DNA from: Candidatus Omnitrophota bacterium
Lineage (GTDB): Bacteria; Omnitrophota; Gorgyraeia; B26-G9
Length of the DNA stretch: 64,000 nucleotides
Direction: 5' to 3'
NCBI GenBank assembly: GCA_043805415.1
Contig: JAZDHZ010000021.1
Span: forward strand, 8,127-72,126
Below the pieces are notes generated by a model. The model was not told the DNA's origin. It ran no database searches and worked only from the letters and a program-made list of their open reading frames with translations. The position numbers and the translations under genes were made by a program. This document shows, in pieces, positions 8,546-33,057 of this stretch (positions are counted from its first letter, which is position 1; each line of letters begins with the position of its first letter).

Positions 8546-10774
8546 ATGACTGCTATTGATATTATCGGAGCTGGAAAATTAATTATGGATAGAAAAATTG
8601 ATGCCCGGGTAATACGCCTGCTTAAAGAAAAAAAGAATTTAGATGAGGAAGATCTCAAAAATTGTTTTATTAAAGCGGAAAAAAAACAAAATTCTCCTAT
8701 TCCTGAAATAGCTGCTAGCACTCAAATCTCAGAAGTTGAATTGCTGGAAATAATTGCTGAGGATTTCCGCACCGAATATGTGGATTTACGCAATAGTTTA
8801 ATCGAGAAATCCTTGATCAAAAAAGTGCCGGTTAAAATCGCTGCCTATTATAAATTTGCTCCTTTAAGTATTGAAAATAGACTTTTGACAATTGCCCGGG
8901 CTTATCCGCTTGATATTAAAATACTTGATGAGATAAGAACGCATCTTGGTTATAGCGTAAAAGTAGTTTTAAGCACTGAGCAGGATGTTAATGAAATGCT
9001 TAAAAAATACTATGGTTTGGGAGCTTCGACTGTAGAAAAGATTATTGCCCAAAAGGCTTATGAGCATGTTACCAGCAAAAAAACCGATGATTTAGTTGAT
9101 GATCTTGAAGAAATCGGGGAGTCAACCTCTGTTATCCAGCTTGTTAACCAGATAATCCTTGAAGCTTACACAAAACGGGCAACAGATATTCATATCGAGC
9201 CGTATCGGAATAAACTGCGGCTGCGTTATCGGATTGATGGGATTCTTTATGATGCCAATGTATCTCCAGAGATAAATAATTTCCTTATTCCGATATTATC
9301 CCGGATCAAGCTCATGTCTAATTTGAATATTGTGGAAAAGCGTGTTCCCCAGGATGGCAGAGCGATTGTTCAAGTTCAAGGACAGACTGTTGATCTGCGC
9401 GTATCTTTTATTCCGACTCCTCATGGAGAGAGTGTGGTAATTAGAATATTGCCGACAGTTATGTTATTTGGCTTGGATAGATTAGGCTTAACCCCGGAAG
9501 AACTTGATTTTTTTAAAGAATTAATCAATAAGCCGCATGGAATTATTTTTGTTACCGGCCCTACGGGTAGTGGAAAAACAACAACGCTTTACGCGTGCTT
9601 ATCAAATATAAATACTAATGAGCGTAAAATAATAACCATTGAAGACCCGATTGAGTATGAGCTGGAAGGCATAACCCAAATCCAAATAACTCCGGAAGTG
9701 GGACTTGATTTTTCTCGGGGCCTTAGGAGCATGCTGCGTCATGATCCGGATGTTATGATGGTCGGAGAAGTAAGAGATTTGGAAACAGCGGAAATCGCGA
9801 TAAGAGTCGCGCTTACCGGTCATCTTGTTTTCTCAACATTACATACTAATGATGCTGCCAGCGGGATAACTCGGTTGATTGATATTGGGCTTGAACCTTA
9901 CCTGGTTGCCTCAAGTGTCGATGCTTTTATTGCCCAGCGTTTGCTCAGACTTAATTGTCCGCATTGTAAGGCTGAAGATACTCAGGTTGTGCCTGGGATA
10001 AAGGAACTGATATTAAGGGAACTTGGCAGAATCAATATTGAGGATATTAAGATCTATCGCAGTAAGGGTTGTCAGGCTTGTAATTTTACGGGTTTTTATG
10101 GAAGAACAGCAATTCATGAGATATTAGTGTTAAATGAGAAATTAAAAGCGCTTACATCGTCTAAAGCTTCAAGTGATGAAATTAAAAAATGCGCTGTATC
10201 AGATGGGATGAAGACATTACGTCAAAGCGGATGGCTAAAAGTGCTTGAAGGTGTGACAACCACTGATGAGGTTCTTAGAGTTACTCAGGCTGACGCGGTG
10301 CCAGATTATATGCGAGTATCCGAAGAGAAGGGATATGATTCAAGAACTGATGAAAAGCCATCTAAAATGCTTAGATTAGAGATTCCGAAACAGCCGGATA
10401 AAGCGGCTAAGCAAACTGATCAGCGGATTCATGAACGGATTGAAGATCAGTTATATGTTCACTATAAAATGTTTAAAACAAAGATAAAAGATTCTGGGGA
10501 AATAGAATACGAGCCAGAGCTTATTGGGGTTACTAAAAATATTAGCGCGGGCGGAGTATTATTAAATTCCGCGGAACAAATTTCTAAAGGAGTAATTCTT
10601 GATGTAAATATGGAAATGCCTCATGACGAAAGAAAAATAGAATGTCTGGCAAGGGTTATCCGCTGTACTGAGATTATTCCGAATAAGAATTATGAAATAG
10701 CGATTTGTTTTCTGGACTTAGCTAGTTCGGAAAGAAGCAGGCTTAATCGCTATATCAATAGAGTGAGCGCGTAA
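8546..10774 (+). CDS. GspE/PilB-family secretion ATPase with a C-terminal PilZ (c-di-GMP-binding type) domain
   Basis: N-terminal T2SE N-domain. Walker [14 protein letters not shown], Asp/His boxes, and tetracysteine motif CPHCK...CQACNFTG. The C-terminal ~110 aa carry RIHERIED (RxxxR) and NISAGGV ((D/N)xSxGG), which are the PilZ signatures. The start may instead be the ATG at 8585. Confidence 0.85.
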   Translation: MTAIDIIGAGKLIMDRKIDARVIRLLKEKKNLDEEDLKNCFIKAEKKQNSPIPEIAASTQISEVELLEIIAEDFRTEYVDLRNSLIEKSLIKKVPVKIAAYYKFAPLSIENRLLTIARAYPLDIKILDEIRTHLGYSVKVVLSTEQDVNEMLKKYYGLGASTVEKIIAQKAYEHVTSKKTDDLVDDLEEIGESTSVIQLVNQIILEAYTKRATDIHIEPYRNKLRLRYRIDGILYDANVSPEINNFLIPILSRIKLMSNLNIVEKRVPQDGRAIVQVQGQTVDLRVSFIPTPHGESVVIRILPTVMLFGLDRLGLTPEELDFFKELINKPHGIIFVTGPTGSGKTTTLYACLSNINTNERKIITIEDPIEYELEGITQIQITPEVGLDFSRGLRSMLRHDPDVMMVGEVRDLETAEIAIRVALTGHLVFSTLHTNDAASGITRLIDIGLEPYLVASSVDAFIAQRLLRLNCPHCKAEDTQVVPGIKELILRELGRINIEDIKIYRSKGCQACNFTGFYGRTAIHEILVLNEKLKALTSSKASSDEIKKCAVSDGMKTLRQSGWLKVLEGVTTTDEVLRVTQADAVPDYMRVSEEKGYDSRTDEKPSKMLRLEIPKQPDKAAKQTDQRIHERIEDQLYVHYKMFKTKIKDSGEIEYEPELIGVTKNISAGGVLLNSAEQISKGVILDVNMEMPHDERKIECLARVIRCTEIIPNKNYEIAICFLDLASSERSRLNRYINRVSA

Positions 10775-10783
10775 CTCAATTTT

Positions 10784-11686
10784 ATGTTAGAAAAGCGTGA
10801 GGCTTATAAATACAGAGCATTAAAACAAGATGGAGAGCTTATAGAAGGCATTGTTTATGCTCTTAATCAGCAAGAGGCTTTTGCTAAAATACTTGAGCAG
10901 GGATATACCCCTGAAATAATTGAAAAAACAGAGTTAGCAGATCAGCGGGCTTATGAACGCAAGCAAATAGAACTCGATTTTTTTTACAGTTTATTTGGCC
11001 AAAGAGCTAAAATAAAGCTGGCAGCAGTCAGCGTAGATAGTCCGGTTTTTAAAGCAAACTTTTTTGGAATTACCCAGAATATTAGTGCCGGAGGGTTGTT
11101 ATTTAATACTCCGCGGCAGTTGAATATCGGAACGATTATTAATGTAACTCTGGAACTGCCGGATGAAGATGCGAAAATTTATGCGCAATGCCGGGTTATC
11201 CGCTGTTATGAAATTGAACAAGATATTAAATATGAAATAGCGGTTTGTTTTTCTGAATTGCCGGAGCAAGGGAAAAAAATACTTAATTCAAAAATAAGAA
11301 AAATCAGCCGGCATTTTGACCGGCGGGCTTACGAACGGTTTAATCAAGAAACAAAATTATACTTTGATTTTCATAAGCTGGAGCAAGTTGAAGAAAAACC
11401 GCAGATTGTGGAAAAAGAAAATAAGTTTGCGGGAAAAACAATTGATCTCAGCGCCGGGGGTATGTTTTTCAGCGGTGCTCTAGAGCTTAAAAAAGATCAG
11501 GTTATTGAACTTGAAATCAGGTTTGAAACGGAAAAAAAAACAATTCAGACTTTGGGCAAGGTGGTGCGTTCCATTGAAGTGCCGAACAGCAATAAAATGT
11601 TATTTCATACTGCTGTTTTTTTTCTTAATATTTCTAATTCCGATAAGAATTGGCTTAATAGGTATGTAATGGATTACAATGGATAG
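10784..11686 (+). CDS. PilC/GspF N-terminal-domain-like module fused to two tandem PilZ domains
   Basis: The N-terminus YKYRALKQDGELIEGIVYALNQQEAFAKILEQGYTPEIIEK parallels the N-termini of both PilC proteins in this window. Two PilZ signatures follow: RAYERKQIE/NISAGG and RRAYERFNQE/DLSAGG. No TM segments. Confidence 0.7.
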   Translation: MLEKREAYKYRALKQDGELIEGIVYALNQQEAFAKILEQGYTPEIIEKTELADQRAYERKQIELDFFYSLFGQRAKIKLAAVSVDSPVFKANFFGITQNISAGGLLFNTPRQLNIGTIINVTLELPDEDAKIYAQCRVIRCYEIEQDIKYEIAVCFSELPEQGKKILNSKIRKISRHFDRRAYERFNQETKLYFDFHKLEQVEEKPQIVEKENKFAGKTIDLSAGGMFFSGALELKKDQVIELEIRFETEKKTIQTLGKVVRSIEVPNSNKMLFHTAVFFLNISNSDKNWLNRYVMDYNG

Positions 11687-11697
11687 GATGTAACTCT

Positions 11698-12186
11698 ATG
11701 GGTGTTTATAAATATAAGGCAACAAAGAGTACTACCGGGGGAACAATTGAATCCATAATCTACGCGGATAGCGCTGAGGAAGCTTTTGAAAAAATAATGG
11801 AAATGGGCTATGCTCCTGAAAAAATAGAGGAAATCAATGCGCCTGATCGTCGGGTAAATGAACGCTTGGAAATAGGACTGAAAATTATTTATAGCCGGTT
11901 TAAGCCTGGCCAGGAGCCGCGGAAAACAAGAGAAGGTTCAACGAGTAATCTCAGCTCAGGAGGGCTGCTTTTTAAAGCTGAACAATCTTATGACAAAGGA
12001 ACAATTTTGGACCTTGAATTGGAATTGCCCGAAGGTATCGAGAATATCAAGTGTTTGGCAAGAGTTATTCGCTGTGATAAAATAGGGCAAGAAGAGCGTC
12101 AGTATAATGTTGCTGCATGTTTTTTAGATCTGCCTAATTCAGAACGTTCAAGAATTAATGATTATATAAACCAACAAAAAAGATAG
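11698..12186 (+). CDS. PilC/GspF N-terminal-domain-like module fused to one PilZ domain
   Basis: YKYKATKSTTGGTIESIIYADSAEEAFEKIMEMGYAPEKIEE, then RRVNERLE/NLSSGG. The C-terminal box CLARVIRC...SERSRINDYIN is nearly identical to the PilZ tail of the 8546 ATPase. Confidence 0.7.
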   Translation: MGVYKYKATKSTTGGTIESIIYADSAEEAFEKIMEMGYAPEKIEEINAPDRRVNERLEIGLKIIYSRFKPGQEPRKTREGSTSNLSSGGLLFKAEQSYDKGTILDLELELPEGIENIKCLARVIRCDKIGQEERQYNVAACFLDLPNSERSRINDYINQQKR

Positions 12187-12195
12187 ACAAGAAAA

Positions 12196-13419
12196 ATGAG
12201 CTTATATAAATACAAAGCTAAAAAAGGTCCAAATAAGATTATTAACTCTGTTATTAATGCTGTATCTCGCCAAGAAGCAATTGAGAAGATAAGCGAGATG
12301 GGATATCTTCCGATGTCGATAGAAGAAGTTCGCGAGGGGGAATCAGCCGCTTTTTCCAGCAAAAAGCTAATCCGCGTGAAACTAAGGTCAAAGCAAATAA
12401 CTGTTTTTACCAGACAGCTGGCAATATTGCTGCGTTCCGGGGTGCCGATTCTTAAAGGACTATTAATCTTAGCAGACCAAGCGCTTAATCCTGATTTTAA
12501 AGCGATATTAAACACAATTAATGCTCAGATAAAAGACGGAAATTCTCTATCCGCAGCCTTGGCGGCTTTCCCGAATATTTTTTCAGCGCTTTATGTGTCT
12601 TTGGTTTGCGCTGGCGAAGACAGCGGCACTTTAGAAACTTCTTTGCTGAGGATTGCTGAATACAGACAAAAACAAGAACAAATTTTTATGAATATTAAAA
12701 CCGCGCTTACATACCCGATTTTAATGGCTTTAGTGGGCATGGGAACAATTATATTTATGCTTACTTTTGTTATGCCCAGGCTGTTAGGAATTTTTGCCAG
12801 ACTAGGTCAAGAATTACCGCTGCCCACAAAAATACTTATTAGTATCAGTAACTTTCTAACTCAGGGATGGGTTTGGGTGATTATTGTGTGTATTGGTTTA
12901 AGCTTAGTGCTCTATTTCAAAAACAATACTCCATCAAGGAGAAGAAAATTATTTATTAGCCGGCTAAAATTAAAACTTCCTATTTTCGGAGAGGTTTTTT
13001 TAAAAGCCGAACTGGCCAGATTTAGCCGGACGCTTGAGCTTTTATTAAAGAGCGGAGTTCATGTTCTCGCTGCCTTGCAAAGAAGCATTCCGATAATTGA
13101 AAACGAAATAATGCAGGATGAGTTAAAGAAAGCTTATCTGGCGATTGAACAAGGAGAATCTTTTGGAGCAACGCTTGACCAATCGGCTGTTTTTCCCAAA
13201 TTCATGGTTAACCTTATTAGCGTGGGTGAAGAATCGGGTAATTTAGAAGAAGCGCTTAAGGAATTGGCGCTTACTTATGAAAATGAAACTGATGAAGCCG
13301 TAAAATTCATGACAAACCTTTTAGAGCCGATGATGATTTTAGTTATGGGCATTGTTGTTGGTTTTATAATTATCTCAATGCTCTTACCTGTATTTCAATT
13401 AAATGTAATGGTTAATTAA
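12196..13419 (+). CDS. Type II secretion / type IV pilus platform protein (GspF/PilC)
   Basis: 407 aa with two T2SF repeats, three TM segments, and the N-terminal YKYKAKKG...GYLPMSIEE domain. Confidence 0.9.
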   Translation: MSLYKYKAKKGPNKIINSVINAVSRQEAIEKISEMGYLPMSIEEVREGESAAFSSKKLIRVKLRSKQITVFTRQLAILLRSGVPILKGLLILADQALNPDFKAILNTINAQIKDGNSLSAALAAFPNIFSALYVSLVCAGEDSGTLETSLLRIAEYRQKQEQIFMNIKTALTYPILMALVGMGTIIFMLTFVMPRLLGIFARLGQELPLPTKILISISNFLTQGWVWVIIVCIGLSLVLYFKNNTPSRRRKLFISRLKLKLPIFGEVFLKAELARFSRTLELLLKSGVHVLAALQRSIPIIENEIMQDELKKAYLAIEQGESFGATLDQSAVFPKFMVNLISVGEESGNLEEALKELALTYENETDEAVKFMTNLLEPMMILVMGIVVGFIIISMLLPVFQLNVMVN

Positions 13420-13420
13420 A

Positions 13421-14284
13421 TTGAAAATTAAAAAAATAGTAATGTTTATTTCTTTTTTTGGGCTGATAGCTGTTTCCGCTTTGACTTTTGCCAAACAAGA
13501 TTGGGCGCAAGTAAGTTCAGATCATTTTGTGGTTTATTATAATGAGATATATGAAAATTTCGCCAGCGATGTATCAAGAAAAGCAGAAGAATATTATAAC
13601 TCTATAGCGGATGATTTAGGCTATGTTCGCTATTCTAATTTCTGGAAATGGGATAAAAGAGTAAAAATATATATATATCCAGATCATATTTCTTATCTTA
13701 GCGCAACCGATCAGCAGAGTTGGTCGCATGGGATTGCTGATTATTACAAGAAGGAAATAATTAGTTATGCTTGGGGTAAAGATTTCTTAAAATCTCTTTT
13801 ACCGCATGAAATGGCGCATCTAATATTCAGGGATTTTGTGGGATTTAAATCCGAGATCCCTTTATGGCTTGATGAAGGGGTTGCTCAATGGGAAGAAACG
13901 GATTTAAAAGCGCAAAGACTTTCGATGATAAAACAGCAAGCCAGACAAAATATTCTTTTACCGATAGAGACAATGATCGACCTGGACATAAGAACAATAA
14001 AAACTGATCAGAAGATAAGCATTAAAGCCATGGCTATTGATGATGCTCAGACTCCATTGCTTGAAATGGATGGCAATGCTCTGGTCAATATTTACTATCT
14101 GCAATCTTTTTCTCTGGTTGGATTTTTGATGGAAAGATATGGATCGGATAGCTTTGTTGTTTTTAGCCGCCAGTTGCGTGATGGTAAGCCGATCAGTGAT
14201 GCTCTGAAATTTGCTTATCCGCAGCAATTGCGGAGTATTGAGGAGCTGGAAAAACAATGGAAACAATATTTATTAAGTAATTGA
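13421..14284 (+). CDS. Secreted zinc metallopeptidase-like protein (HEXXH...E, peptidase MA-like)
   Basis: Signal peptide MKIKKIVMFISFFGLIAVSALTFA. HEMAH with a downstream E in WLDEGVAQWEE. TTG start 1 nt after the pilC stop (coupled). Confidence 0.55.
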   Translation: MKIKKIVMFISFFGLIAVSALTFAKQDWAQVSSDHFVVYYNEIYENFASDVSRKAEEYYNSIADDLGYVRYSNFWKWDKRVKIYIYPDHISYLSATDQQSWSHGIADYYKKEIISYAWGKDFLKSLLPHEMAHLIFRDFVGFKSEIPLWLDEGVAQWEETDLKAQRLSMIKQQARQNILLPIETMIDLDIRTIKTDQKISIKAMAIDDAQTPLLEMDGNALVNIYYLQSFSLVGFLMERYGSDSFVVFSRQLRDGKPISDALKFAYPQQLRSIEELEKQWKQYLLSN

Positions 14285-14312
14285 ATAATTTAATATAAAT
14301 GGGGGATATTAT

Positions 14313-14717
14313 ATGAAAAAAAAACAAGGTTTTACACTAATAGAATTAATGCTGGTTGTAATTATAATAAGCGCATTGGCCGCTATGGTGCTGCCGCGGC
14401 TTGCTGGTCGTTCTGAACAAGCAAGAACTGCTGCCGCCAATGCTGATATTAACGCGAATATCGCGACAGGTTTAAAACTCTATGAGCTGGATAATGGTCA
14501 GTTTCCTACAACAGCAGAAGGATTACAGGCACTTTTGAGTAAGCCGGCTACTGCCAATAACTGGAATGGGCCTTATATTGAAAAAGATCCGATTGACCCA
14601 TGGGGAAGAAAATACGAGTACAAATCTCCGGGACAGAATCGGCCGCAAGATTATGATCTTTTTTCTTTAGGTAGAGATGCTCAGCCTAGCGAAGATGATG
14701 TGAATAATTGGAAATAA
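14313..14717 (+). CDS. Major pseudopilin GspG-like (type IV pilin-fold)
   Basis: Prepilin N-terminus KKKQGFTLIELMLVV. The GspG-like tail DPWGRKYEYKSPGQNRPQDYDLFSLGRDAQP corresponds to the GspG 'DPWGNPYQY...YDL.SLG.DG' block. Confidence 0.85.
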   Translation: MKKKQGFTLIELMLVVIIISALAAMVLPRLAGRSEQARTAAANADINANIATGLKLYELDNGQFPTTAEGLQALLSKPATANNWNGPYIEKDPIDPWGRKYEYKSPGQNRPQDYDLFSLGRDAQPSEDDVNNWK

Positions 14718-14718
14718 T

Positions 14719-15201
14719 ATGTTATTTATCCCGGATTTTAGGTTTAAAAAATTATTTAGGGTTAAATCAGTAAACATAAACTCTGCCAATAAGAAAGCTT
14801 TTACACTGGTTGAGGTGCTTGTTTCATCAGTTATTCTCTCAGTAGGATTGGTAATAATTTTTGAAGTATTTCTTTCTTCGCTTGATATTGTGAATTTAGT
14901 GAATAATCGGTTAAATGCCCAGTTGTTTATAAATGAAAAAATCTGGCAGTTGCAAAGTAATTTAGACCGGCAAAGCGGTATGTTTATTCCAATGAAACAG
15001 TCTGGTTCGGTTATGCTGGGAAACAAGGAATTTAAATGGCAGTTAGATATGGAATTAGTGGATATTTCTCAGGAGCTGTATAAAGTTAGCGGGCAAATGA
15101 ATTGGTTGTCTGGCAGTAAACAAAAAATGATTAAACGCCAAGTAATGGTAAAAAGTTGTTTTAGTAATGCCAATCCTTGGAAAGATCATAATAGATTATG
15201 A
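14719..15201 (+). CDS. Minor pseudopilin (GspH/GspI-like)
   Basis: Prepilin-type N-terminus KAFTLVEVLVSSVILSVGLVII, small size, and position after gspG. Confidence 0.6.
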   Translation: MLFIPDFRFKKLFRVKSVNINSANKKAFTLVEVLVSSVILSVGLVIIFEVFLSSLDIVNLVNNRLNAQLFINEKIWQLQSNLDRQSGMFIPMKQSGSVMLGNKEFKWQLDMELVDISQELYKVSGQMNWLSGSKQKMIKRQVMVKSCFSNANPWKDHNRL

Positions 15202-15821: not shown

Positions 15822-15849
15822 AATTTAGCGCGCGATAACAACGAACTTT

Positions 15850-24770: not shown

Positions 24771-24789
24771 AAAATATTTATGCTGAGGG

Positions 24790-26517: not shown

Positions 26518-26551
26518 TAAAACATATAACCAAAAATAGAAAACAATCAAA

Positions 26552-27793
26552 ATGGAAAAATTCAATTATGTGGCTGTAAGCAAAGATGGTGCTGATATTA
26601 AGGGAACGGTTGAAGCCATTAATTTAAATGACGCTTTGACTAAAATCAAGGGAAAGGGATATTTTCCCTCGGAAGTTGTGGCGGCGCACTTAAGCACTAA
26701 AAAATCTTTCTTAGCGGCTCTGATTAAAAAGTTGAGTTTTTTCAGGCTGGCGGACGCGAAAATAAAAGACATTGATCTGGTTATTTTTACCCGCCAGCTT
26801 TCCGTTCTCCTTGATGCCGGGCTATCTTTGGTGCGGGGTCTTCATACATTAAAAAAACAATCACGGTTTAAAGCAATGAATGCGGTTATTGCCGATGTTG
26901 TTGATATGATAGAGTCAGGCCGGGCATTTAGTGATGCTTTGGCGCATTATCCAGATACTTTTTCAAAAGTATATATCAATATTGTTAAAGCTGGAGAAAC
27001 CGGAGGGGCAATGGATCAGGTTCTTCGGCGGTTAGCTGATTTTTTAGAAAGAAATTTAAGATTAAAACAAAGGATTCAGGCAGCATTGATTTATCCCAGT
27101 CTTGTTCTTGCGGTATCACTTACAATTTTAATCCTTATCCTTGTTTTTGTAATTCCGCGATTTATGGAAATGTTTCAAGATACAGGAGTGGCTTTGCCTT
27201 TTTTAACTTTATGTATAATGTCTTTCAGTAATTTTCTATTAACTAAATGGTATGTGTTTTTTGCTGTGATAATTTTGTTTATAGGGTGCTATAAAATGTT
27301 ACTATATAATTCTAAGTTTCGTAATTATATTGATAATTTAAAGTTAAATATTCCGGTTTTAGGAGGATTAACCCAAAAGGTCATTGCGGCGCGATTTTCC
27401 CGGACTCTTTCAACCCTGCTTTCTGGGGGGGTTCCGATATTGAGAGCTTTAGAGTTAACCAAGGAAGTAAGCGGTAATGAGGTTGTCGCAAAAGCCATTG
27501 CTAATGTTGCGGAGCATGTTAAAGAAGGCGGTTTTATTTCCAAGGTACTTGAAAATAACCCGGCTTTTCCCCAGCTAATGATAAATATGATTGCAGTTGG
27601 CGAAGAGAGCGGGGCATTAGATAAGATGCTGGCTAAAGTCGCTGACACCTATGAAGAAGAAGTTGATGTTACGGCTAATACTTTAACATCGCTTTTAGAG
27701 CCTTTTCTTGTTATTGTTATGGGTGGGTTTGTTTTTATAATTGTTTTGGCAATGTTTTTGCCTTTATTGACCTTAATCCAGTCTTTAACTTAA
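26552..27793 (+). CDS. PilC/GspF platform protein (paralog 2)
   Basis: 413 aa with two T2SF repeats and the N-terminus FNYVAVSKDGADIKGTVEAINLNDALTKIKGKGYFP. Confidence 0.9.
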   Translation: MEKFNYVAVSKDGADIKGTVEAINLNDALTKIKGKGYFPSEVVAAHLSTKKSFLAALIKKLSFFRLADAKIKDIDLVIFTRQLSVLLDAGLSLVRGLHTLKKQSRFKAMNAVIADVVDMIESGRAFSDALAHYPDTFSKVYINIVKAGETGGAMDQVLRRLADFLERNLRLKQRIQAALIYPSLVLAVSLTILILILVFVIPRFMEMFQDTGVALPFLTLCIMSFSNFLLTKWYVFFAVIILFIGCYKMLLYNSKFRNYIDNLKLNIPVLGGLTQKVIAARFSRTLSTLLSGGVPILRALELTKEVSGNEVVAKAIANVAEHVKEGGFISKVLENNPAFPQLMINMIAVGEESGALDKMLAKVADTYEEEVDVTANTLTSLLEPFLVIVMGGFVFIIVLAMFLPLLTLIQSLT

Positions 27794-28064
27794 TGCAAAT
27801 AATTGAGTTGCATTATTGTTCGACAAAATTTTAGTCTAATTATGCTGAAATTTGCCGATTGAGTATTGACAAACCTTTATAAATATGATATATATATGAC
27901 ATATATGATAGTTAGAATTGTTTTATAGTCATTTTAAAGACAAACATCTTCCCTTTAAAAAAGCCTTTTCAAAGGAATGAATTGGTGACCTATGGGTATT
28001 GAAAAGATCTTAATATCTTGCCTGGTTAAATCACAAAATGGATGTATAATATTTAGGTTGATTC

Positions 28065-29663
28065 ATGTCTAATGAAAAAAAAATATTTTTAGGTATTGAT
28101 ATTGGTTCAAGCTCCTTGAAAATTGCGCTTTTAAGCAAGGAAAAAGGAGGCAGGATCAAATTGCTTCAAGCAGTTTGTGATGAGTATACAAGTTATCCTG
28201 TAAGTGAAGATAATCAAAATCAAACCGCATTATTAGCCTATTTTTTAAAGAAATTCCTATATAAAGAGAAAATTTCCCGGGATACCAGGATAGGTATTTC
28301 TATTGCCGGACAATCTGCTTTTGTTCGTTTAGTTAAAGTTCCGGTTACTGCGCCCGCAAAATTGCGCCAAATTGTGCTTTATGAGACTCAGCAACAAGTG
28401 CCATTTCCGATAAAAGATGTTGTTTGGGATTTTCAAATATATGGACGGGATAAAAAACAAATCAGTGTGCTTTTAGCCGCTGTAAAAAAAGAGCTTACAT
28501 CTTCGATTTTAGATGTGATCAGTGAATTTTCACTTAATGTTGAGTTTATTGATGTAAGCAATCTGGCTCTTTATAACTGTTTGCATTATTTTTATCGTGA
28601 TCTTAAAGAAACATTAGTTTTAGATATTGGCGCTAAAACAACAAATATTATTATTGTCAACGACGGTAAAATCTGGACGAGAAGCCTGCCGATAGGCGGT
28701 CAGGATATCACGGATGCGATTGCGCTTTCTCTTAAAATAGATAATGCTCAGGCTGAAAAAATAAAAAGAGAAAAAGGCAAAGTGCTGATGCTTTATTATG
28801 GCCAAAAACGCTCGCAAGATACCCAAGAACAAAAAATCGCGGAAGCGATTACTGAGATATTAACAGACTTGACCAATGAAATTGTTAAGACATTGAATTT
28901 TTATAAGTCTCAGCATAAGTCTGATATGAATTTTAAAAAAGTGTTGCTGACCGGGGGTGTTAGCAAAATAGATAATATTGATAAATTTTTTGAGAATAGT
29001 TTGTCTCTTCCTGTGGAGAAATTGGATTATTTGAATTTTCTGGGTTTTCATCATAAAATTGATTTGTCACTCAATGAATTATTAGGACCGGCAATCGGTT
29101 TAGCATTACGCGGTCATGGCCGGTCAGTTTTAAATATTAATTTGCTCTCGCAAGAGCATTTGCAAAAGAAAACCTTTAAAAAGAAAATCCCATTTATAGT
29201 CAGCACCTGCGCGGCTTTTAGTTTATTCTTACTCGGATTGCTTATGCTGATTGCTAGCAAAAATAGCCAACTGGCTAGTTATTTGGAAATATTGAATAAT
29301 ACAATTACTAAATATGAACAAGCGACTAAACAATTAGACGATTTGCAAAAAGAGATCAATACTACGCAAAACAGCCACAAAGCAATGAGTAAAATTGTAT
29401 CGGAGCGCTATGACGCGATAGAAATCCTAAGCCTGCTTACTCAAACAATGCCTGGGGCAGTGTGGATTCGAAGTCTTAATTTAGATTTAGAACTTAACGC
29501 GATTGTTATTGAAGGAAACTGCGGACAGGATTTAAACGCGCTGGATTCTTTTCAAAACCAAATTAAGTCACAGGAAATATTTAAAGATGTGAAAGTGAAT
29601 ACTGTTAATAAAAAAGAAGATGGGACGATAGATTTTTCTTTAAGCATATTTATAAACACATAG
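28065..29663 (+). CDS. PilM-PilN fusion protein
   Basis: IFLGIDIGSSSLKIALL is an actin-like fold motif. LNINLLSQEH precedes a TM helix (IVSTCAAFSLFLLGLLMLIA), followed by a periplasmic tail. Confidence 0.75.
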   Translation: MSNEKKIFLGIDIGSSSLKIALLSKEKGGRIKLLQAVCDEYTSYPVSEDNQNQTALLAYFLKKFLYKEKISRDTRIGISIAGQSAFVRLVKVPVTAPAKLRQIVLYETQQQVPFPIKDVVWDFQIYGRDKKQISVLLAAVKKELTSSILDVISEFSLNVEFIDVSNLALYNCLHYFYRDLKETLVLDIGAKTTNIIIVNDGKIWTRSLPIGGQDITDAIALSLKIDNAQAEKIKREKGKVLMLYYGQKRSQDTQEQKIAEAITEILTDLTNEIVKTLNFYKSQHKSDMNFKKVLLTGGVSKIDNIDKFFENSLSLPVEKLDYLNFLGFHHKIDLSLNELLGPAIGLALRGHGRSVLNINLLSQEHLQKKTFKKKIPFIVSTCAAFSLFLLGLLMLIASKNSQLASYLEILNNTITKYEQATKQLDDLQKEINTTQNSHKAMSKIVSERYDAIEILSLLTQTMPGAVWIRSLNLDLELNAIVIEGNCGQDLNALDSFQNQIKSQEIFKDVKVNTVNKKEDGTIDFSLSIFINT

Positions 29664-29675
29664 AAATCTACGATT

Positions 29676-30416
29676 ATGGAAATATTGTTAATAAAAAAAT
29701 TTAAAAAAACTTTTACCGTTATTGTCATTATCGGGGTAATTTGTGTATGCCTGATAATCGCGATCCTGGCAGCCGGAGTTTTAAATTCGACTTTAAATTT
29801 AAAAGTTTCCGAACTGGAAAAAAAACTTATAGTCTATAAGAAAGCTTTGGGCAGCAATCCGGAGCAAGCGATAGATATCAAAAAATCCTTAAAGCAACAG
29901 TTATTAGCTGAAAATGAACAGATTAATAATCTTTTTATGAAAACAAGGGAAAGTAATCCTGTGACCACTACGCCGCTTTCATTTAAACAATTTTTGTTTA
30001 GTACTCAGGATAGATTAAAATCTAAGGCGCTTAAGAAAAAGATGTCCTTACCTGTTTGGCTGGGATTTGATGAATATAAAATTAATGTTCCTGATGCTGA
30101 TAATGCTGATGTTTTGATTAAAGAGCTTGCTATTGTCGAAGAGATTGTTAACGGAGCATTGGCTAGTGAGGTGAGCTCTATTGAGAGCATTAAATTATCA
30201 CACCAAAGACTTAGCGTAATAGTTGCTGAGCAAAAAATTAAATATTTGCCTATTGCTTTATCAATAAAATCTGATTCCGGGCAGATGAAAGCTTTTTTGA
30301 TGAATATTTCAAAGCTGCAAGGTATTTTTTCGATCAAACAATTAAAAGTAAAGTGCCTTGATGAAAATAAAAATCAATTGTCAGCGGATATAAATCTGAA
30401 GTTTATCGAGATATGA
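29676..30416 (+). CDS. PilO-like inner-membrane pilus assembly protein
   Basis: N-terminal TM VIVIIGVICVCLIIAILAAGVL, coiled coil, and position after pilMN. Confidence 0.5.
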   Translation: MEILLIKKFKKTFTVIVIIGVICVCLIIAILAAGVLNSTLNLKVSELEKKLIVYKKALGSNPEQAIDIKKSLKQQLLAENEQINNLFMKTRESNPVTTTPLSFKQFLFSTQDRLKSKALKKKMSLPVWLGFDEYKINVPDADNADVLIKELAIVEEIVNGALASEVSSIESIKLSHQRLSVIVAEQKIKYLPIALSIKSDSGQMKAFLMNISKLQGIFSIKQLKVKCLDENKNQLSADINLKFIEI

Positions 30417-31123
30417 AAAATATGAATAAGATATATGATAATTTAGAAAAAATAGCCTGTTTTACGATGGTAAGTATTTTGATAATCAGCAGTTATTTTT
30501 TCATTACAAGCAATGCTGAGTATAAAATATTTGTAGAGCAAAAGAAAAGTGAATTAGCAGATATGGATAGGCAATTTGTGGCAAAATCAGCTGAGCCGGG
30601 AACTTTACTATCAAGAATTGATGAAAAAACAAAGATTGATTTACTGAAAGTAAAAAGGAATATTTTTGCTCCGTTTAAGGATGATGATGAGAAAAGACAA
30701 TATTCTAATAATTCCGTGTTGGAGGTATTGGATATTGCCTATAAGCCATTGGCCTTTCAATATCAAGGAAGAATAATTTATCCTAATGGACAGATTGTAG
30801 CGCAGATTAATGCTGATAATAAAAGCTATTTAGTAAAGACTGGTTCAAACTTGGGAAAATACAAGGTTGGGCAATTGGATAAAGATTCAATTAATTTAAA
30901 AACTAAACAAGGTGAAAATGTAACTATTAAATATCTGCAGACAGCGTTTAGTGATGAGTTAATGGCAAAAATAAAAGAAAGTATTTCTGGAGAGATTGAA
31001 ACAGTTTATAAAAACAGTGATATATACGGCTATAAGGTGCTTGACATTGAGGAAGATTGTGTGATATTATCTAAGTCAGGACAGCACCTAAGGTTACAGA
31101 AAGGAATGGTGCAAGCAAAATGA
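30413..31123 (+). CDS. PilP-like protein (N-terminal anchor, beta-rich C-terminus)
   Basis: Position between the pilO-like gene and the secretin. Overlaps both neighbours by 4 nt. Confidence 0.4.
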   Translation: MKNMNKIYDNLEKIACFTMVSILIISSYFFITSNAEYKIFVEQKKSELADMDRQFVAKSAEPGTLLSRIDEKTKIDLLKVKRNIFAPFKDDDEKRQYSNNSVLEVLDIAYKPLAFQYQGRIIYPNGQIVAQINADNKSYLVKTGSNLGKYKVGQLDKDSINLKTKQGENVTIKYLQTAFSDELMAKIKESISGEIETVYKNSDIYGYKVLDIEEDCVILSKSGQHLRLQKGMVQAK

Positions 31124-33057
31124 AACGATTTTTCTTCTTTTTAATTCTAATATCTTTTTTCTTATCTTCTGCTCAAAGCGGGGTTTGCCAAGAAATCGAT
31201 ACGAGTAGTTTTGAGCAAGAGCGGGCTTTAGGGCTTGCTAATCAGATCGCACAGCAAAAATATTCAGTGGCTCAAACAGATACAAAGTACTTAAGTGCCG
31301 ATGTCGCTGATTTAGTCAGCAAAGGATATGATGCTTGGGCAAATCTTGATTTTGAACAGGCAAAGTTATTTTTTAATAGCGCGCTGAATCTTGAACCGAG
31401 TAATTCTGATCTCTCGGAGCTTATTTATGGGGTTGAAAAAGCGCGATTAGAATATGAGCGTGATAAGGTGAAAACAGAATTGTCTCTTTTGCAGGAAAAA
31501 AAAGTGCTTGATTCAGAGAAAGCATGGCTTATCGATGAACAGCAAACCACAGTTTCTACCGCGAAAATTAAAAAACCAGAGGTAGCTGCTTTAAAACAAA
31601 AAGCAATGCAGAAAAATGTCAGCATAGATTTTACCAACGCGCAGATTAGTAATGTGCTTGAGTTTTTATCAGAAGTCAGCGGAATTAATATTATTATGGA
31701 TGAGACCGCTGTAGCGAGCGCGGGAAATATCGGCATTCATCTGAAAAATGTTAGTTTAGTCCAGGCCTTAGAATCAATATTGCGCTCTAAAGGACTTGGT
31801 TATCGTTTTGAAAATGATTTTATTTGGGTTAGTTCTCAAGCTGATATTGCCAATGAAGGTTTAGTTGTGCGTGTATATCATCTTTCTCAAGGCTTAGCAA
31901 GTTTTACTTATTTTACTACTTTTGACACGGTTACAGTTGAGGGAGTGCGGGCAGATAATAAAATAGTTTTAGGCGATGCTGCTGGTGAAGAAGGCACTGA
32001 TAGCTCTGGGGTGCGGACTTTTGAAGGGATAAAAGTCGGTGGGCCCAGCGGAGTCGCGGGTAAAATAACAATGACAATTGAAGATGTTTTAAAACAAGTC
32101 GTTGATTGGCCGGAAACAAGTAAGATATTCCTGGATAATCGGACAAGTACTCTTATTGTTAGAAATACCCCGAGCAATATTGCGGTTTTAGAAGAAGTTT
32201 TAGCGGCAATTGATGTAAATCCTCCCCAGGTTATGATTGAAGCAAGGTTTGTGGAAATCGGCGCGGATGATTTGTATTCTTTGGGGCTTAAGATGAATGC
32301 TGAGATTTCTGGTCAAGGGGCATCAGCTCCGACATCATTTCCGTTTAATAAAAACAATGATGGAAAATTCGCAGCTGCTTTTCCTAATCCAACAACTGAT
32401 GAATTTAATGTGGGTAAGCTTGATTTTTCACAGTTCCAAGCGGTTATTTCTGCTATAGAAAGAAATACTAATAGCAATACTCTTTCTTCTCCGAAGATCA
32501 CTACAATTAGCGGGCAAGAAGCAGTAATAAAGATAGTAAAAGAATATCGATATCCCACAAAATATGAAATCGAAGTATTAAAGGTGGAAGATGCTAGTGG
32601 TAATACGGTTACCCAGTCTTTTCCCGTTCCGGTTGAATTTACAACCCGCGATATTGGAATAATTTTAAAAGTTACCCCTAATGTTGGTGCTGATGAGAAG
32701 ACAATCAATATGACGGTTATTCCAGAGGTTAGTGAATTTGACACAACCAAAGACTTTTTTAATTATGGGACAGCTGAAAGACCATTTTTACAGCCTTTTT
32801 TCAATACGCGGAACGCGACAGCAAGTATCATCGTTAATAATAATGAAACTGTTGTCATGGGCGGACTGATGCGGGAAGTTGTAGAAAAGGGGGTTGACCG
32901 TATTCCAGTGCTGGGGAGTATTCCGTTGATTGGAAATTTATTTAGCCGCAAAGTTGACAATAAACAAAAAAGAAATTTATTGATTTTTGTTACAGCAAGA
33001 ATAATCAGTCCTACTGGCCAAACAGTAGCAAAAAAATATTTTTTTGAAGAGTTATAA
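31120..33057 (+). CDS. pilQ: Secretin (PilQ/GspD family) outer-membrane channel
   Basis: TLIVRNTPSNIAVLEEVLAAIDVNPPQVMIEARFVEI (N-domain / secretin junction). C-terminal ETVVMGGL...IPVLGSIPLIGNLF...LLIFVTARII. Signal peptide present. Confidence 0.9.
   Translation: MKRFFFFLILISFFLSSAQSGVCQEIDTSSFEQERALGLANQIAQQKYSVAQTDTKYLSADVADLVSKGYDAWANLDFEQAKLFFNSALNLEPSNSDLSELIYGVEKARLEYERDKVKTELSLLQEKKVLDSEKAWLIDEQQTTVSTAKIKKPEVAALKQKAMQKNVSIDFTNAQISNVLEFLSEVSGINIIMDETAVASAGNIGIHLKNVSLVQALESILRSKGLGYRFENDFIWVSSQADIANEGLVVRVYHLSQGLASFTYFTTFDTVTVEGVRADNKIVLGDAAGEEGTDSSGVRTFEGIKVGGPSGVAGKITMTIEDVLKQVVDWPETSKIFLDNRTSTLIVRNTPSNIAVLEEVLAAIDVNPPQVMIEARFVEIGADDLYSLGLKMNAEISGQGASAPTSFPFNKNNDGKFAAAFPNPTTDEFNVGKLDFSQFQAVISAIERNTNSNTLSSPKITTISGQEAVIKIVKEYRYPTKYEIEVLKVEDASGNTVTQSFPVPVEFTTRDIGIILKVTPNVGADEKTINMTVIPEVSEFDTTKDFFNYGTAERPFLQPFFNTRNATASIIVNNNETVVMGGLMREVVEKGVDRIPVLGSIPLIGNLFSRKVDNKQKRNLLIFVTARIISPTGQTVAKKYFFEEL

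What the first reader, a model, noticed from the sequence alone, without database searches (positions are those of the whole stretch)
8546..33057. Two differently organised filament systems: a secretin-less T2SS-like set and a pilin-less T4P-like set
Cluster 1 (8546-18958) follows the canonical T2SS order E-F-G-(H/I)-J-K-L-M but has no secretin or GspC. Cluster 2 (21756-33057) has pilB, pilT, a second pilB, pilC, pilMN, pilO, pilP and a pilQ secretin, but no pilin genes. A third GspG-like gene sits alone between pgk and tpiA. No prepilin peptidase gene is present in the window. Across the two clusters there are three assembly ATPases, one PilT, two platforms and a single secretin. This suggests either a shared outer-membrane channel or a hybrid machine.
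Basis: partly seen in the sequence, partly recalled or inferred. Interest (0 to 1): 0.55.

Follow-up and report, generated by a model that had tools for sequence, protein, structure and literature searches.

The report
Two paralogous pilus machines, parts split
An uncultured Omnitrophota bacterium carries two related pilus/secretion-type machines side by side, one lacking an outer-membrane pore and the other lacking its minor pilins, so they probably share parts; the broad locus type is already described.

Summary
Window 8546-33057 (an Omnitrophota MAG) encodes three GspE/PilB-type ATPases, one PilT, two platform proteins, two fused PilM-PilN proteins, one secretin and no prepilin peptidase.

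- Cluster 1 also carries a PilZ domain on its ATPase, two T2SSF_N-PilZ adaptor genes and a conserved exported zinc peptidase.
- The "lone" GspG-like gene is only the second such gene in the window. It is cluster 2's own major pilin, orthologous to the G gene inside a complete E-F-G-H-I-J-K-MN-O/P-Q cluster at the same chromosomal site in a distant relative.
- The T2SS-versus-T4P contrast is largely naming. Both clusters are paralogues of one filament type.

Comparative findings:
- Cluster 1 is a phylum-wide module, usually preceded by an F-type ATPase operon (described by Seymour et al. 2023). None of about ten orthologous loci carries a secretin or a GspC/PilP gene.
- Cluster 2 lost its minor-pilin block in this clade.

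The complementary losses make shared use of the secretin and the minor pilins the best reading. This is inferred, not shown, because the rest of the genome could not be searched. It is a new variant of a known kind, of moderate interest.

The parts
3158..8419 (+). F-type ATPase operon directly upstream of cluster 1. It comprises epsilon 3158-3427, c subunit 3453-3671, b/delta fusion 3802-4536, alpha 4508-6001, gamma 6178-7020 and beta 7013-8419. No a subunit is present in the window.
   Evidence: Pfam hits. The same operon precedes cluster 1 orthologues in L081, L083, L086-L091, L151, L153 and L154. This is the 'symbiotic' F-ATPase/T4aP co-location of Seymour et al. 2023 (PMC10066038).
8546..10774 (+). 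Cluster 1 assembly ATPase with a C-terminal PilZ domain (MshEN + T2SSE + PilZ).
   Evidence: NCBIfam scores: GspE 568 bits, PilB 551 bits, both below the equivalog cut-offs. PDB scores: PilB 431, GspE 391. The PilZ RxxxR...NxSxxG motif is intact. The fusion is conserved in L151, L153 and L154.
10784..11686 (+). Adaptor protein: a platform-protein N-terminal domain (T2SSF_N-like) followed by two PilZ domains.
   Evidence: two PilZ domains; the N-terminus is 36% identical to c1_F residues 4-58 (E 1e-8), and the PilZ part is 38% identical to the tail of c1_E. Both c-di-GMP motifs are intact. The gene is absent from L001, L081 and L083.
11698..12186 (+). Adaptor protein: T2SSF_N-like domain plus one PilZ domain.
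   Evidence: residues 1-46 are 54% identical to c1_F residues 1-45 (E 2e-10). The orthologue in L151 is annotated PF28597 T2SSF_N + PilZ. Only about 10 full-length relatives exist among 1.84 billion representative proteins. DNA repeats with a 500-540 nt period link the E 3' end, the adaptors and the F 5' end.
12196..13419 (+). Cluster 1 platform protein (GspF/PilC family).
   Evidence: GspF model 364 bits, cut-off 424. It is 33% identical to the cluster 2 platform.
13421..14284 (+). Exported gluzincin zinc metallopeptidase with a signal-peptide-like N-terminus, HEMAH and E152. It is a conserved component of cluster 1.
   Evidence: Peptidase_MA_2. 1304 homologues; the top 120 are at least 49% identical and the named ones are all Omnitrophota 'hypothetical' proteins. 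HExxH and the downstream E are invariant. The AF2 model has pLDDT 90.8. Foldseek matches M1 aminopeptidase and M9 collagenase catalytic domains with TM 0.56-0.59. The gene always lies just upstream of G.
14313..14717 (+). Cluster 1 major pseudopilin, GspG type.
   Evidence: TIGR01710 scores 135 bits against a cut-off of 88.9. Canonical G|FTLIE cleavage site.
14719..15201 (+). Minor pseudopilin, GspI/PilV-like.
   Evidence: N_methyl domain. Weak gspI hit, E 9.5e-4. A|FTLVE site.
15198..15821 (+). Minor pseudopilin, GspJ-like.
   Evidence: T2SSJ, E 2e-8. gspJ, E 2e-6.
15850..16962 (+). Minor pseudopilin, GspK-like tip subunit.
   Evidence: T2SSK_1st, E 7e-21, plus HHH_3. T2SS_GspK, E 2e-25.
16949..18388 (+). 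Cluster 1 PilM-PilN fusion, with a GspL-like architecture.
   Evidence: More than 120 orthologue clusters are at least 41% identical; those that carry a name are Omnitrophota or 'PVC group'. Only 19% identical to the cluster 2 fusion.
18419..18958 (+). Cluster 1 PilO/GspM-like protein, the last gene of the cluster 1 operon.
   Evidence: GspM_XpsM, E 1e-8. T2SSM_b and PilO hits are weak. Intergenic gaps from E to O are all 30 bp or less.
20354..20803 (+). GspG-type pilin between pgk and tpiA, inferred to be the major pilin of cluster 2.
   Evidence: T2SSG, E 9e-13. G|FTLMEV site. Best match of the G gene in L147. It co-occurs with cluster 2 and not with cluster 1. It starts 23 bp after pgk.
21756..23432 (+). 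Cluster 2 first assembly ATPase (B1), the most GspE-leaning of the three.
   Evidence: NCBIfam: GspE 603 bits, PilB 557 bits. PDB: PilF 434, GspE 426, PilB 416. The MshE-type c-di-GMP motif scores below its cut-off (22 against 38 bits).
23706..24770 (+). PilT retraction ATPase.
   Evidence: pilT_fam scores 455 bits against a cut-off of 319. It is 83-97% identical in relatives.
24790..26517 (+). Cluster 2 second assembly ATPase (B2), PilB-like, with an intact MshEN c-di-GMP motif.
   Evidence: PDB: PilB 531 bits, GspE 410 bits. The c-di-GMP motif model scores 57 bits against a cut-off of 38. Motif LGKILVNLGFITEGQLLNALGIQ.
26552..27793 (+). Cluster 2 platform protein (PilC/GspF family).
   Evidence: It is the best match of the L147 platform (42% identity).
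27794..28064 (.). A 271-bp AT-rich gap at the position where the orthologous cluster in L147 carries its G-H-I-J-K pilin block. No pilin remnant is detectable here.
   Evidence: L147 gene order. No pilin motif in any reading frame. Sequence inspected.
28065..29663 (+). Cluster 2 PilM-PilN fusion, Amuc_1101-like.
   Evidence: PilM_2, E 5e-33, plus PilN. Amuc_1101_fam, E 1e-90, below its cut-off.
29676..30416 (+). PilO-like protein, Amuc_1100-like.
   Evidence: Amuc_1100_fam, E 2e-12. Orthologues are annotated PF28028 Amuc_1100.
30413..31123 (+). Protein in the PilP position: an N-terminal helix followed by a beta-rich region. Its function is not established.
   Evidence: No Pfam, NCBIfam or PDB match. 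The AF2 single-sequence model has pLDDT 42. The gene is conserved in position, and in L147 it is fused to the PilO-like gene.
31120..33057 (+). Secretin with a TPR-like N-terminal region, N0/STN, N1 and the secretin domain; PilQ-leaning.
   Evidence: Amuc_1098_fam is the best NCBIfam hit. The best PDB match is V. cholerae PilQ at 117 bits, against XcpQ at 92 bits. The named hits outside the close Omnitrophota-type family are mostly annotated PilQ. MN-O-P-Q-polA synteny is conserved in L146-L149 and L155.

Best explanation
The region holds two paralogous type IV filament machines of one Omnitrophota/PVC type. They are two motors with partly shared parts, not one hybrid operon.

Machine A is cluster 2 plus the pilin at 20354-20803. 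It is read as a retractile T4a-like pilus. Its parts are a PilB-like extension ATPase (B2, with an intact MshEN c-di-GMP site), a second ATPase (B1), PilT, a PilC platform, a PilM-PilN fusion, an Amuc_1100-like PilO, a PilP-position protein, a TPR-secretin and a GspG-type major pilin co-transcribed with pgk. In this clade it has lost the H-I-J-K minor-pilin block that the orthologous cluster keeps between the platform and PilMN in a distant relative.

Machine B is cluster 1. It is a phylum-wide module, in most loci preceded by an F-type ATPase operon. It consists of an ATPase with a C-terminal PilZ domain, a platform, an exported gluzincin peptidase, GspG/I/J/K pseudopilins, a PilM-PilN fusion and a PilO/GspM-like protein. 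It has no retraction ATPase, no PilP/GspC and no secretin in any lineage sampled. In this clade, one or two T2SSF_N-PilZ adaptors arose by tandem duplication of the junction between the 3' end of gene E and the 5' end of gene F.

What is shown: the gene content, the orthology, the independence of the two modules and the complementary losses.

What is inferred:
(i) Machine B builds a short, non-retractile pseudopilus under c-di-GMP control.
(ii) Having no outer-membrane conduit of its own, machine B works through the only PilQ-type secretin.
(iii) The I-J-K tip complex of cluster 1 also primes the cluster 2 pilus.
(iv) The peptidase is either cargo or, given its high conservation, a periplasmic processing or disassembly factor.
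For: Gene families.

Paralogy:
- The three ATPases are 40-43% identical to one another, the platforms 33% and the PilMN fusions 19%.

Cluster 1 as a conserved, secretin-less module:
- L081, L083, L084, L086-L091 and L133.
- L133 is followed by pst genes.
- L151, L152, L153 and L154.
- More than 120 PilMN orthologue clusters and 1304 peptidase homologues; those that carry a name are Omnitrophota or 'PVC group'.

Cluster 2 orthology and loss of the pilin block:
- L147 reads E-F-G-H-I-J-K-x-MN-O/P-Q-polA.
- The best matches of L147 F, MN and Q are the cluster 2 genes, and the best match of L147 G is the lone G.
- L146 and L149 have the same block-less arrangement as the window.

Lone G travels with cluster 2.

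Super-locus conservation:
- The arrangement is kept down to 61% PilMN and 54-61% secretin identity.

Modules are not always self-sufficient: L152 has a cluster 1-type module with no platform gene in 21 kb.

c-di-GMP motifs are intact in all four PilZ domains and in B2.

Peptidase fold and active site.

Precedent for cross-use: T2SS and T4a minor pilins are functionally interchangeable, and a T2SS can assemble a T4 pilus (review PMC7248040).

Co-location of an F-ATPase with a T4aP cluster has already been reported for Omnitrophota (PMC10066038).
Against: - The rest of the genome was not available, so a second secretin (for example the Tad RcpA type common in Omnitrophota), further pilins and pilD may lie elsewhere.
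- The alignment proteins of the two clusters are very divergent (PilMN 19% identical; the PilO-like proteins show no detectable similarity), and cluster 1 has no PilP/GspC. Docking of cluster 1 under the cluster 2 secretin therefore has no identified coupler.
- Cluster 1 sits far from any cluster 2-type locus in most lineages (L133, L152-L154).
- L004 and L005 carry cluster 2 plus the lone G without an adjacent cluster 1. L005 retains only a frameshifted remnant of the last 57 codons of the PilO-like gene, which suggests cluster 2 can work without cluster 1. L005 is, however, a scaffold with runs of N.
- No expression, operon or structural data exist. The promoter and terminator scans were at chance level.
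Confidence: 0.5

Rival explanations
1. The two systems are fully independent, and their missing parts are encoded elsewhere in the genome. Cluster 1 would have its own secretin (and GspC-like coupler) at another locus. Cluster 2 would have its own minor pilins at another locus, as in Pseudomonas, where pilMNOPQ, pilABCD, fimU-pilVWXY1E and pilTU are scattered. On this view the adjacency is incidental.
For: - Cluster 1 and cluster 2 occur at unrelated sites in most lineages.
- L004 and L005 have cluster 2 without an adjacent cluster 1.
- pilD is encoded elsewhere in every locus examined, so scattered T4F genes are normal here.
- Tad/RcpA secretins are frequent in Omnitrophota.
- The alignment proteins of the two clusters are highly divergent.
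Against: - A dedicated T2SS secretin is almost always encoded with its system (general knowledge). Yet none of about ten cluster 1 orthologous loci, spanning 44-92% PilMN identity, has one nearby.
- The pilin block was lost from cluster 2 in exactly the clade where cluster 1 lies adjacent.
- L152 lacks a platform gene, which shows that modules can depend on parts encoded elsewhere.
Confidence: 0.28
2. Cluster 1 never crosses the outer membrane. It would build a periplasm-confined pseudopilus (an 'endopilus') that works with the exported peptidase inside the periplasm, for example in envelope remodelling or uptake. It would therefore need no secretin at all.
For: - Secretin and PilP/GspC are absent phylum-wide.
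- The peptidase is more conserved (at least 49% identity) than the pseudopilins (29-39%), which fits a housekeeping periplasmic enzyme better than a fast-evolving secreted effector.
- There is no retraction ATPase.
Against: - The GspK-type tip subunit and the GspG equivalog are typical of systems that push or extend through a secretin.
- I know of no precedent for such a machine in a diderm bacterium.
- The conserved link to the F-type ATPase is not explained.
Confidence: 0.12
3. All the genes form one obligate hybrid machine: a single envelope complex containing both platforms, both PilMN/O sets and all four ATPases.
For: - All genes lie on the same strand with short spacers.
- The super-locus is conserved over substantial divergence.
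- Gene content is complementary.
Against: - The two clusters are inherited independently and occur separately in most lineages.
- Each has a complete inner-membrane set (ATPase, platform, PilMN, PilO).
- Spacers of 187, 273 and 271 bp suggest at least four transcription units.
Confidence: 0.08

Closest known systems
Omnitrophota 'symbiotic' F-type ATPase / type-4a pilus loci (Seymour et al. 2023, Nat Microbiol, PMC10066038)
   Same: An F-type ATPase operon lies immediately upstream of a T4P-type cluster. The paper reports this for 57 of 66 contigs and in every class of the phylum. The window and loci L081, L083, L086-L091, L151, L153 and L154 show exactly this arrangement.
   Different: The main text of the paper calls the cluster T4aP and, as searched, never uses the words 'secretin' or 'T2SS'. 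The passages returned do not mention the PilZ-fused ATPase, the conserved peptidase or a second, secretin-bearing paralogous cluster. Here the ATPase-linked cluster is the one without a secretin and without PilT.
Akkermansia muciniphila Amuc_1098-Amuc_1101 pilus-like cluster (PVC superphylum; Ottman et al. 2016, PMC4960237)
   Same: The PilMN fusion, the PilO-like protein and the secretin of cluster 2 have Amuc_1101, Amuc_1100 and Amuc_1098 as their best NCBIfam families. The secretin combines a TPR-like N-terminal region with the secretin domain, as described for Amuc_1098.
   Different: All scores lie far below the family cut-offs (305 against 650, 47 against 180 and 205 against 750 bits). 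These are distant homologues, not members. The Omnitrophota secretin is shorter (645 aa against 907 aa).
Canonical type II secretion system (Gsp/Xcp/Eps)
   Same: Cluster 1 has the gene order E-F-G-(I)-J-K-L-like-M-like, a GspG that passes its equivalog model, GspJ- and GspK-type minor pseudopilins, and no retraction ATPase. A protease encoded inside the operon recalls T2SS operons that carry their own substrate, for example E. coli T2SS-beta with SslE (from my own knowledge).
   Different: There is no GspD, GspC, GspH or GspO. The L-like protein is a PilM_2 + PilN fusion by HMM. The ATPase and the platform score below the GspE and GspF cut-offs. The ATPase carries a PilZ domain.
Type IVa pilus machines of Myxococcus, Geobacter and Pseudomonas
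   Same: Cluster 2 has a PilB-like ATPase (531 bits to Geobacter PilB), PilT, PilC, PilM/N/O, a PilQ-leaning secretin and a separate MN-O-P-Q unit. Pilins being encoded away from pilMNOPQ is ordinary in these systems.
   Different: PilM and PilN are fused. There is a second PilB/GspE-like ATPase. The major pilin is of the GspG type. No recognisable PilP and no AMIN domains are present, and no minor pilins lie in or near the cluster.
Cross-use between T2SS and T4P parts (review PMC7248040) and c-di-GMP control of T4P/T2SS ATPases (MshEN, PMC5013675; PilZ-FimX-PilB, PMC8389850)
   Same: Minor pseudopilins and minor pilins are interchangeable, and a T2SS can assemble T4 pili. That gives a precedent for sharing. 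c-di-GMP acts on the extension ATPase through MshEN or through PilZ partner proteins.
   Different: Here the PilZ domain is fused to the ATPase itself. Extra PilZ proteins carry a copy of the platform's N-terminal domain. This architecture is very rare, with about 10 representative clusters.

Membership tests
Type II secretion system (cluster 1) | Outer-membrane secretin GspD encoded with the system | tested here: not met
   Cluster 1 contains no Secretin-domain gene, here or in about ten orthologous loci.
Type II secretion system (cluster 1) | GspC coupler (HR domain) linking the inner-membrane platform to GspD | tested here: not met
   No T2SSC or PilP hit in any cluster 1 gene. The small ORFs that follow the PilO-like gene in L133, L152 and L153 have no family hit.
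Type II secretion system (cluster 1) | Major pseudopilin GspG | tested here: met
   TIGR01710 scores 135.1 bits against a cut-off of 88.85.
Type II secretion system (cluster 1) | Minor pseudopilins GspH, I, J and K | tested here: inconclusive
   J (T2SSJ, E 2e-8) and K (T2SSK_1st, E 7e-21) are recognised. One gene is weakly I-like (E 9.5e-4). No H is found. All score below the equivalog cut-offs.
Type II secretion system (cluster 1) | GspE and GspF at equivalog level | tested here: not met
   GspE scores 567.7 bits, below its 630.25 cut-off, and nearly ties with PilB at 550.9. GspF scores 364.2 bits, below its 424 cut-off.
Type II secretion system (cluster 1) | GspL and GspM | tested here: inconclusive
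   The L-position protein matches PilM_2 + PilN, not T2SSL. The M-position protein matches GspM_XpsM at 35 bits, below its 60-bit cut-off, and PilO weakly.
Type IVa pilus (cluster 2) | PilT retraction ATPase | tested here: met
   TIGR01420 scores 455.5 bits against a cut-off of 319.1.
Type IVa pilus (cluster 2) | PilB extension ATPase | tested here: inconclusive
   B2 scores 626 bits on the PilB model (cut-off 675.65) and 628 bits on the GspE model. Against solved structures, PilB scores 531 and GspE 410.
Type IVa pilus (cluster 2) | PilM, PilN, PilO and PilP alignment complex | tested here: inconclusive
   The pilM model is passed (158 bits against 133). PilN is present, fused to PilM. PilO is weak. 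PilP is not detectable by Pfam, NCBIfam, PDB sequence search or a low-confidence model.
Type IVa pilus (cluster 2) | PilQ secretin | tested here: inconclusive
   The Pfam Secretin domain is passed (137.5 bits). The PilQ subfamily model scores 178 bits, below its 284 cut-off, and GspD scores 184 bits, below its 351 cut-off. The best solved structure is a PilQ.
Type IVa pilus (cluster 2) | T4a-type major pilin and core minor pilins | tested here: not met
   The only associated pilin is of the GspG type (T2SSG domain). There are no minor pilins in 21756-33057. The orthologous L147 cluster does have them.
T2SS and T4aP (both clusters) | Prepilin peptidase (GspO/PilD, Peptidase_A24) | tested here: not met
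   None in the 64-kb window, nor in any of the contexts L146-L155. The rest of the genome could not be tested.
Omnitrophota F-type ATPase / T4aP co-located locus (Seymour et al. 2023) | An F-type ATPase gene cluster within 10 kb of a T4P-type cluster, in an Omnitrophota genome | tested here: met
   The ATPase beta gene ends 126 bp before the cluster 1 ATPase gene. The organism is identified. The phylogenetic placement of the alpha subunit as 'type 2/3' was not tested.
Amuc_1098 / Amuc_1100 / Amuc_1101 families (NCBIfam) | Score above the curated family cut-off | tested here: not met
   The scores are 204.7 against 750, 47.4 against 180 and 305.4 against 650 bits. These are the best-hitting families, but the proteins are only distant homologues.

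The most novel reading that the evidence does not exclude
The two clusters may have undergone reciprocal gene loss and become mutually dependent. One GspI-J-K tip complex, from cluster 1, would prime both filaments. One TPR-secretin, from cluster 2, would serve both inner-membrane motors. c-di-GMP would decide which motor engages. It would act through the PilZ-fused ATPase plus platform-mimicking T2SSF_N-PilZ adaptors on one side, and through the MshEN site of the PilB-like ATPase on the other. The cell would thus toggle one envelope conduit between protease secretion and a retractile attachment pilus, with the linked F-type ATPase feeding the secretion module.
Probability: 0.18. Interest if true: 0.7.

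Novelty: new variant of a known kind. Interest (0 to 1): 0.45.

Why it matters
Omnitrophota are uncultured ultra-small bacteria thought to live as predators or parasites. Their pili and the linked F-type ATPase are the main genomic clues to how they attach to hosts.

Three points sharpen that picture. The ATPase-linked cluster is a secretin-less, c-di-GMP-gated pseudopilus module that carries a conserved exported zinc peptidase. A second, paralogous cluster supplies the only secretin and the only PilT in the window. That second cluster has lost its minor pilins. Together these give a concrete, testable case of part-sharing between type IV filament machines.

The result also shows that T2SS and T4P labels from standard models are unreliable in this phylum. 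If sharing were disproved, the finding would reduce to ordinary scattered pilus genes.

Tried and rejected
- Promoter and terminator consensus scans over 8000-36000 gave counts at or near shuffle level and no intergenic +-strand terminators, so they are uninformative for operon mapping. Only the intergenic distances were used.
- An Rfam scan of the whole window found nothing, so there is no c-di-GMP riboswitch.
- PilP identity of 30413-31123 could not be established. There is no Pfam, NCBIfam or PDB sequence match for it or for five orthologues, and the single-sequence AF2 model is unusable (pLDDT 42). It stays unresolved.
- I considered the peptidase as a substitute prepilin peptidase and rejected the idea. 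It is an exported gluzincin (HExxH + E, signal-peptide-like N-terminus, M1/M9-like fold). It is not a polytopic aspartic protease acting at the cytoplasmic face.
- I considered cluster 1 as a Com-like DNA-uptake pseudopilus. It has no ComEA or ComEC genes, and the HHH_3 hit lies in the GspK-type domain. The idea is not supported.
- Three attempts to extend the source contig beyond the window by exact-protein look-up failed.
- No formal ATPase phylogeny with outside references was built, because no reference sequences were available offline. HMM and PDB score comparisons were used instead, and they are ambiguous for two of the three ATPases.
- L005 as proof that cluster 2 works without cluster 1 is weakened by runs of N in that scaffold.

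Full report
**Source and layout**

The window comes from an uncultured Candidatus Omnitrophota genome. The secretin, the cluster 1 PilMN protein and the peptidase are each 100% identical to NCBI proteins with V1747_ locus tags on a 72,940-bp contig. The closest pgk genes are in Omnitrophota MAGs. Every gene in the 64 kb lies on the + strand, and G+C is about 37%.

**Check of the observation**

Cluster 1 (8546-18958) reads as follows:
- an ATPase (MshEN + T2SSE + a C-terminal PilZ domain);
- two PilZ proteins;
- a platform protein;
- a Peptidase_MA_2 protein;
- GspG, which passes its equivalog cut-off;
- an I-like pseudopilin, a J-like pseudopilin and a K-like pseudopilin;
- a PilM-PilN fusion;
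- a PilO/GspM-like protein.

Cluster 2 (21756-33057) reads as follows:
- an ATPase (B1);
- PilT, which passes its family cut-off;
- a second ATPase (B2);
- a platform protein;
- a PilM-PilN fusion;
- a PilO/Amuc_1100-like protein;
- an unassignable protein in the PilP position;
- a secretin.

A six-frame scan finds only four prepilin-type N-termini (14313, 14719, 15198, 20354). None lies in cluster 2. No prepilin peptidase is present in the window.

- The gene between pgk and tpiA is the second GspG-type gene in the window, not the third.
- Three cluster 1 genes (two PilZ genes and the peptidase) and the PilZ fusion on the ATPase were not noted.
- 'PilP' rests on position alone.

**The T2SS/T4P dichotomy is weak**

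All three long ATPases score almost equally on the GspE and PilB models and fall below both cut-offs. Both platform proteins hit the GspF model best.

Against solved structures:
- B2 is clearly PilB-like (531 bits against 410).
- B1 is the most GspE-leaning.
- The cluster 1 ATPase is intermediate.

The three ATPases are 40-43% identical to one another. The platforms are 33% identical and the PilMN fusions 19%. Both clusters use a fused PilM-PilN. The secretin leans towards PilQ. Together with the PilMN and PilO-like proteins, it has the Akkermansia Amuc_1098/1101/1100 families as best hits, though far below their cut-offs. The TPR-plus-secretin design matches what was described for Amuc_1098.

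**Cluster 1 is an old, autonomous, secretin-less module**

Metagenome loci and gene contexts show the same string wherever enough flanking sequence was recovered. The string is an ATPase, usually PilZ-fused, then (usually) a platform, the peptidase, G, I-like, J, K, PilMN and the PilO-like gene. In most loci it is preceded by an F-type ATPase operon.

- At 85-87% platform identity: L081-L083.
- At 55%: L084.
- At 46-47%: L086-L091 and L133.
- At 44-61% PilMN identity: L151-L154.

None of these loci has a secretin or a PilP/GspC gene. Where 4.8-9.4 kb downstream is available (L133, L152, L153, L154), unrelated genes follow.

Variants carry response regulators and histidine kinases inside or beside the module (L152, L153). 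L152 lacks a platform gene altogether, is preceded by sensor kinase and response-regulator genes instead of the F-type ATPase, and its ATPase has no PilZ domain.

PilMN orthologues (more than 120 clusters) and peptidase homologues (1304) that carry a name are Omnitrophota or 'PVC group'.

Co-location of an F-type ATPase with a 'T4aP' cluster is already published for this phylum (PMC10066038). In the window the operon comprises epsilon, c, a b/delta fusion, alpha, gamma and beta.

**The peptidase**

It is about 285 aa with a signal-peptide-like N-terminus. It has invariant HExxH and a glutamate 19 residues downstream. The model is confident (pLDDT 90.8). The fold matches M1 aminopeptidase and M9 collagenase catalytic domains (TM 0.56-0.59).

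It is more conserved across the phylum (at least 49% identity) than the pseudopilins (29-39%). It cannot be the missing prepilin peptidase: it is the wrong catalytic class and sits on the wrong side of the membrane. It is either cargo of the pseudopilus or a periplasmic processing or disassembly factor. The high conservation favours the second option, but this is inference.

**c-di-GMP inputs**

All four PilZ domains keep the RxxxR...(D/N)xSxxG motif. Only B2 keeps a full MshEN motif.

The two small PilZ proteins begin with a copy of the platform's N-terminal domain. One is 54% identical to the cluster 1 platform over 46 residues (E 2e-10). Both end with a PilZ domain that is 35-38% identical to the ATPase tail. 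The L151 orthologue is annotated T2SSF_N + PilZ.

DNA repeats with a 500-540 nt period link the 3' end of gene E, the adaptors and the 5' end of gene F. This fits tandem duplication of the E/F junction. Relatives at 61-89% identity have one copy, the window has two, and the more distant lineages sampled have none. Only about ten representative clusters among 1.84 billion proteins share the full architecture. A role as c-di-GMP-dependent competitors or couplers at the ATPase-platform interface is a hypothesis.

**Cluster 2 and the 'lone' pilin**

The unit MN-O-P-Q followed by polA-glgA-coaE-rho is conserved across Omnitrophota. What lies upstream of it varies:
- the same B1-T-B2-C arrangement as the window (L146, L149);
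- nothing related (L148, L155);
- in L147 (secretin 43% identical), a complete E-F-G-H-I-J-K-x-MN-O/P-Q cluster.

The best matches of L147's platform, PilMN and secretin are the cluster 2 proteins. The best match of its G pilin is the lone G (41% identity, E 9e-34, against 34% for the cluster 1 G).

The lone G is present between pgk and tpiA at all 8 loci where cluster 2 follows tpiA. That includes L004 and L005, which have no cluster 1 upstream. It is absent from 15 Omnitrophota loci where pgk and tpiA are adjacent and cluster 2 is not nearby.

The lone G is therefore cluster 2's major pilin. It starts 23 bp after pgk. In this clade cluster 2 has lost the H-I-J-K block, and a 271-bp gap remains at that position.

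**Are the two machines linked?**

Arguments for a link:
- The losses are complementary.
- The super-locus is conserved down to 54-61% identity of marker proteins.
- L152 has a module without a platform gene.
- Published work shows that T2SS and T4a minor pilins are interchangeable and that a T2SS can assemble T4 pili (PMC7248040).

Arguments against a link:
- The two clusters are inherited independently.
- Their alignment proteins are very divergent, and no coupler for cluster 1 is known.
- L004 and L005 have cluster 2 without an adjacent cluster 1. L005 retains only a frameshifted 57-codon remnant of the PilO-like gene, but it is a scaffold with N runs.
- The rest of the genome is unknown, and Tad/RcpA secretins are common in the phylum.

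**Verdict**

The best reading is two paralogous motors with shared parts, at about 0.5 confidence. The rivals are full independence with the missing parts elsewhere (0.28), a periplasm-confined cluster 1 (0.12), and a single hybrid complex (0.08).

The broad locus type is known. The new points are the secretin-less, peptidase-bearing, PilZ-gated anatomy of cluster 1, the loss of the pilin block from cluster 2, and the junction-duplication adaptors. Together they make this a new variant of a known kind, of moderate interest.

Noticed in passing
window 3158-8419: An F-type ATPase operon (epsilon, a 72-aa c subunit, a b/delta fusion, alpha, gamma, beta) ends 126 bp before cluster 1. No a subunit is present in the window. 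The same window also holds a V/A-type ATPase operon (56993-62354: a DUF2764 protein and the A, B and D subunits), so the cell has two rotary ATPases.
   Followed up: partly
window 9-2972: A 987-aa protein with repeated Ig-like N-terminal modules and a single C-terminal transmembrane helix lies directly upstream of the F-type ATPase operon. It is about 90% conserved in L081 and L083 at the same position. It has no confident family hit and could be a surface adhesin tied to the locus.
   Followed up: no
window 10784-12186; L151 4289-4798: The T2SSF_N + PilZ adaptor genes appear to have arisen by tandem duplication of the junction between the 3' end of the ATPase gene and the 5' end of the platform gene. 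The window has two copies (one with two PilZ domains) and relatives at 61-89% identity have one. The more distant loci sampled (L084, L086, L152-L154) have none. The architecture is very rare, with about 10 representative clusters worldwide.
   Followed up: yes
L152 4414-12538: This is a cluster 1-type module with no platform gene in 21 kb. A 251-aa response regulator sits where the platform gene normally is. Two sensor kinase/response regulator pairs lie upstream in place of the F-type ATPase, and the ATPase has no PilZ domain.
   Followed up: partly
L153 522-1013; L154 2947-3414; L087-L089: In more distant relatives a stand-alone MshEN-domain protein of 155-163 aa is encoded just before the PilZ-fused ATPase. 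The window has no such gene.
   Followed up: no
L005 6180-6350: A frameshifted remnant of the last 57 codons of the cluster 1 PilO-like gene lies just upstream of pgk. The scaffold otherwise lacks cluster 1. It also contains runs of N, so either a deletion or an assembly artefact is possible.
   Followed up: partly
window 45959-52741: Two large proteins have hydrophobic, signal-like N-termini. One is 1223 aa with a CofD-like domain. The other is 988 aa with HD_4 and weak RelA_SpoT domains. An apparently exported RelA/SpoT-like protein is odd.
   Followed up: no
window 19146-21675: The pilin gene is wedged into the otherwise universally adjacent pgk-tpiA pair, starting 23 bp after pgk. This would tie expression of the major pilin to a strongly expressed glycolytic operon.
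   Followed up: partly
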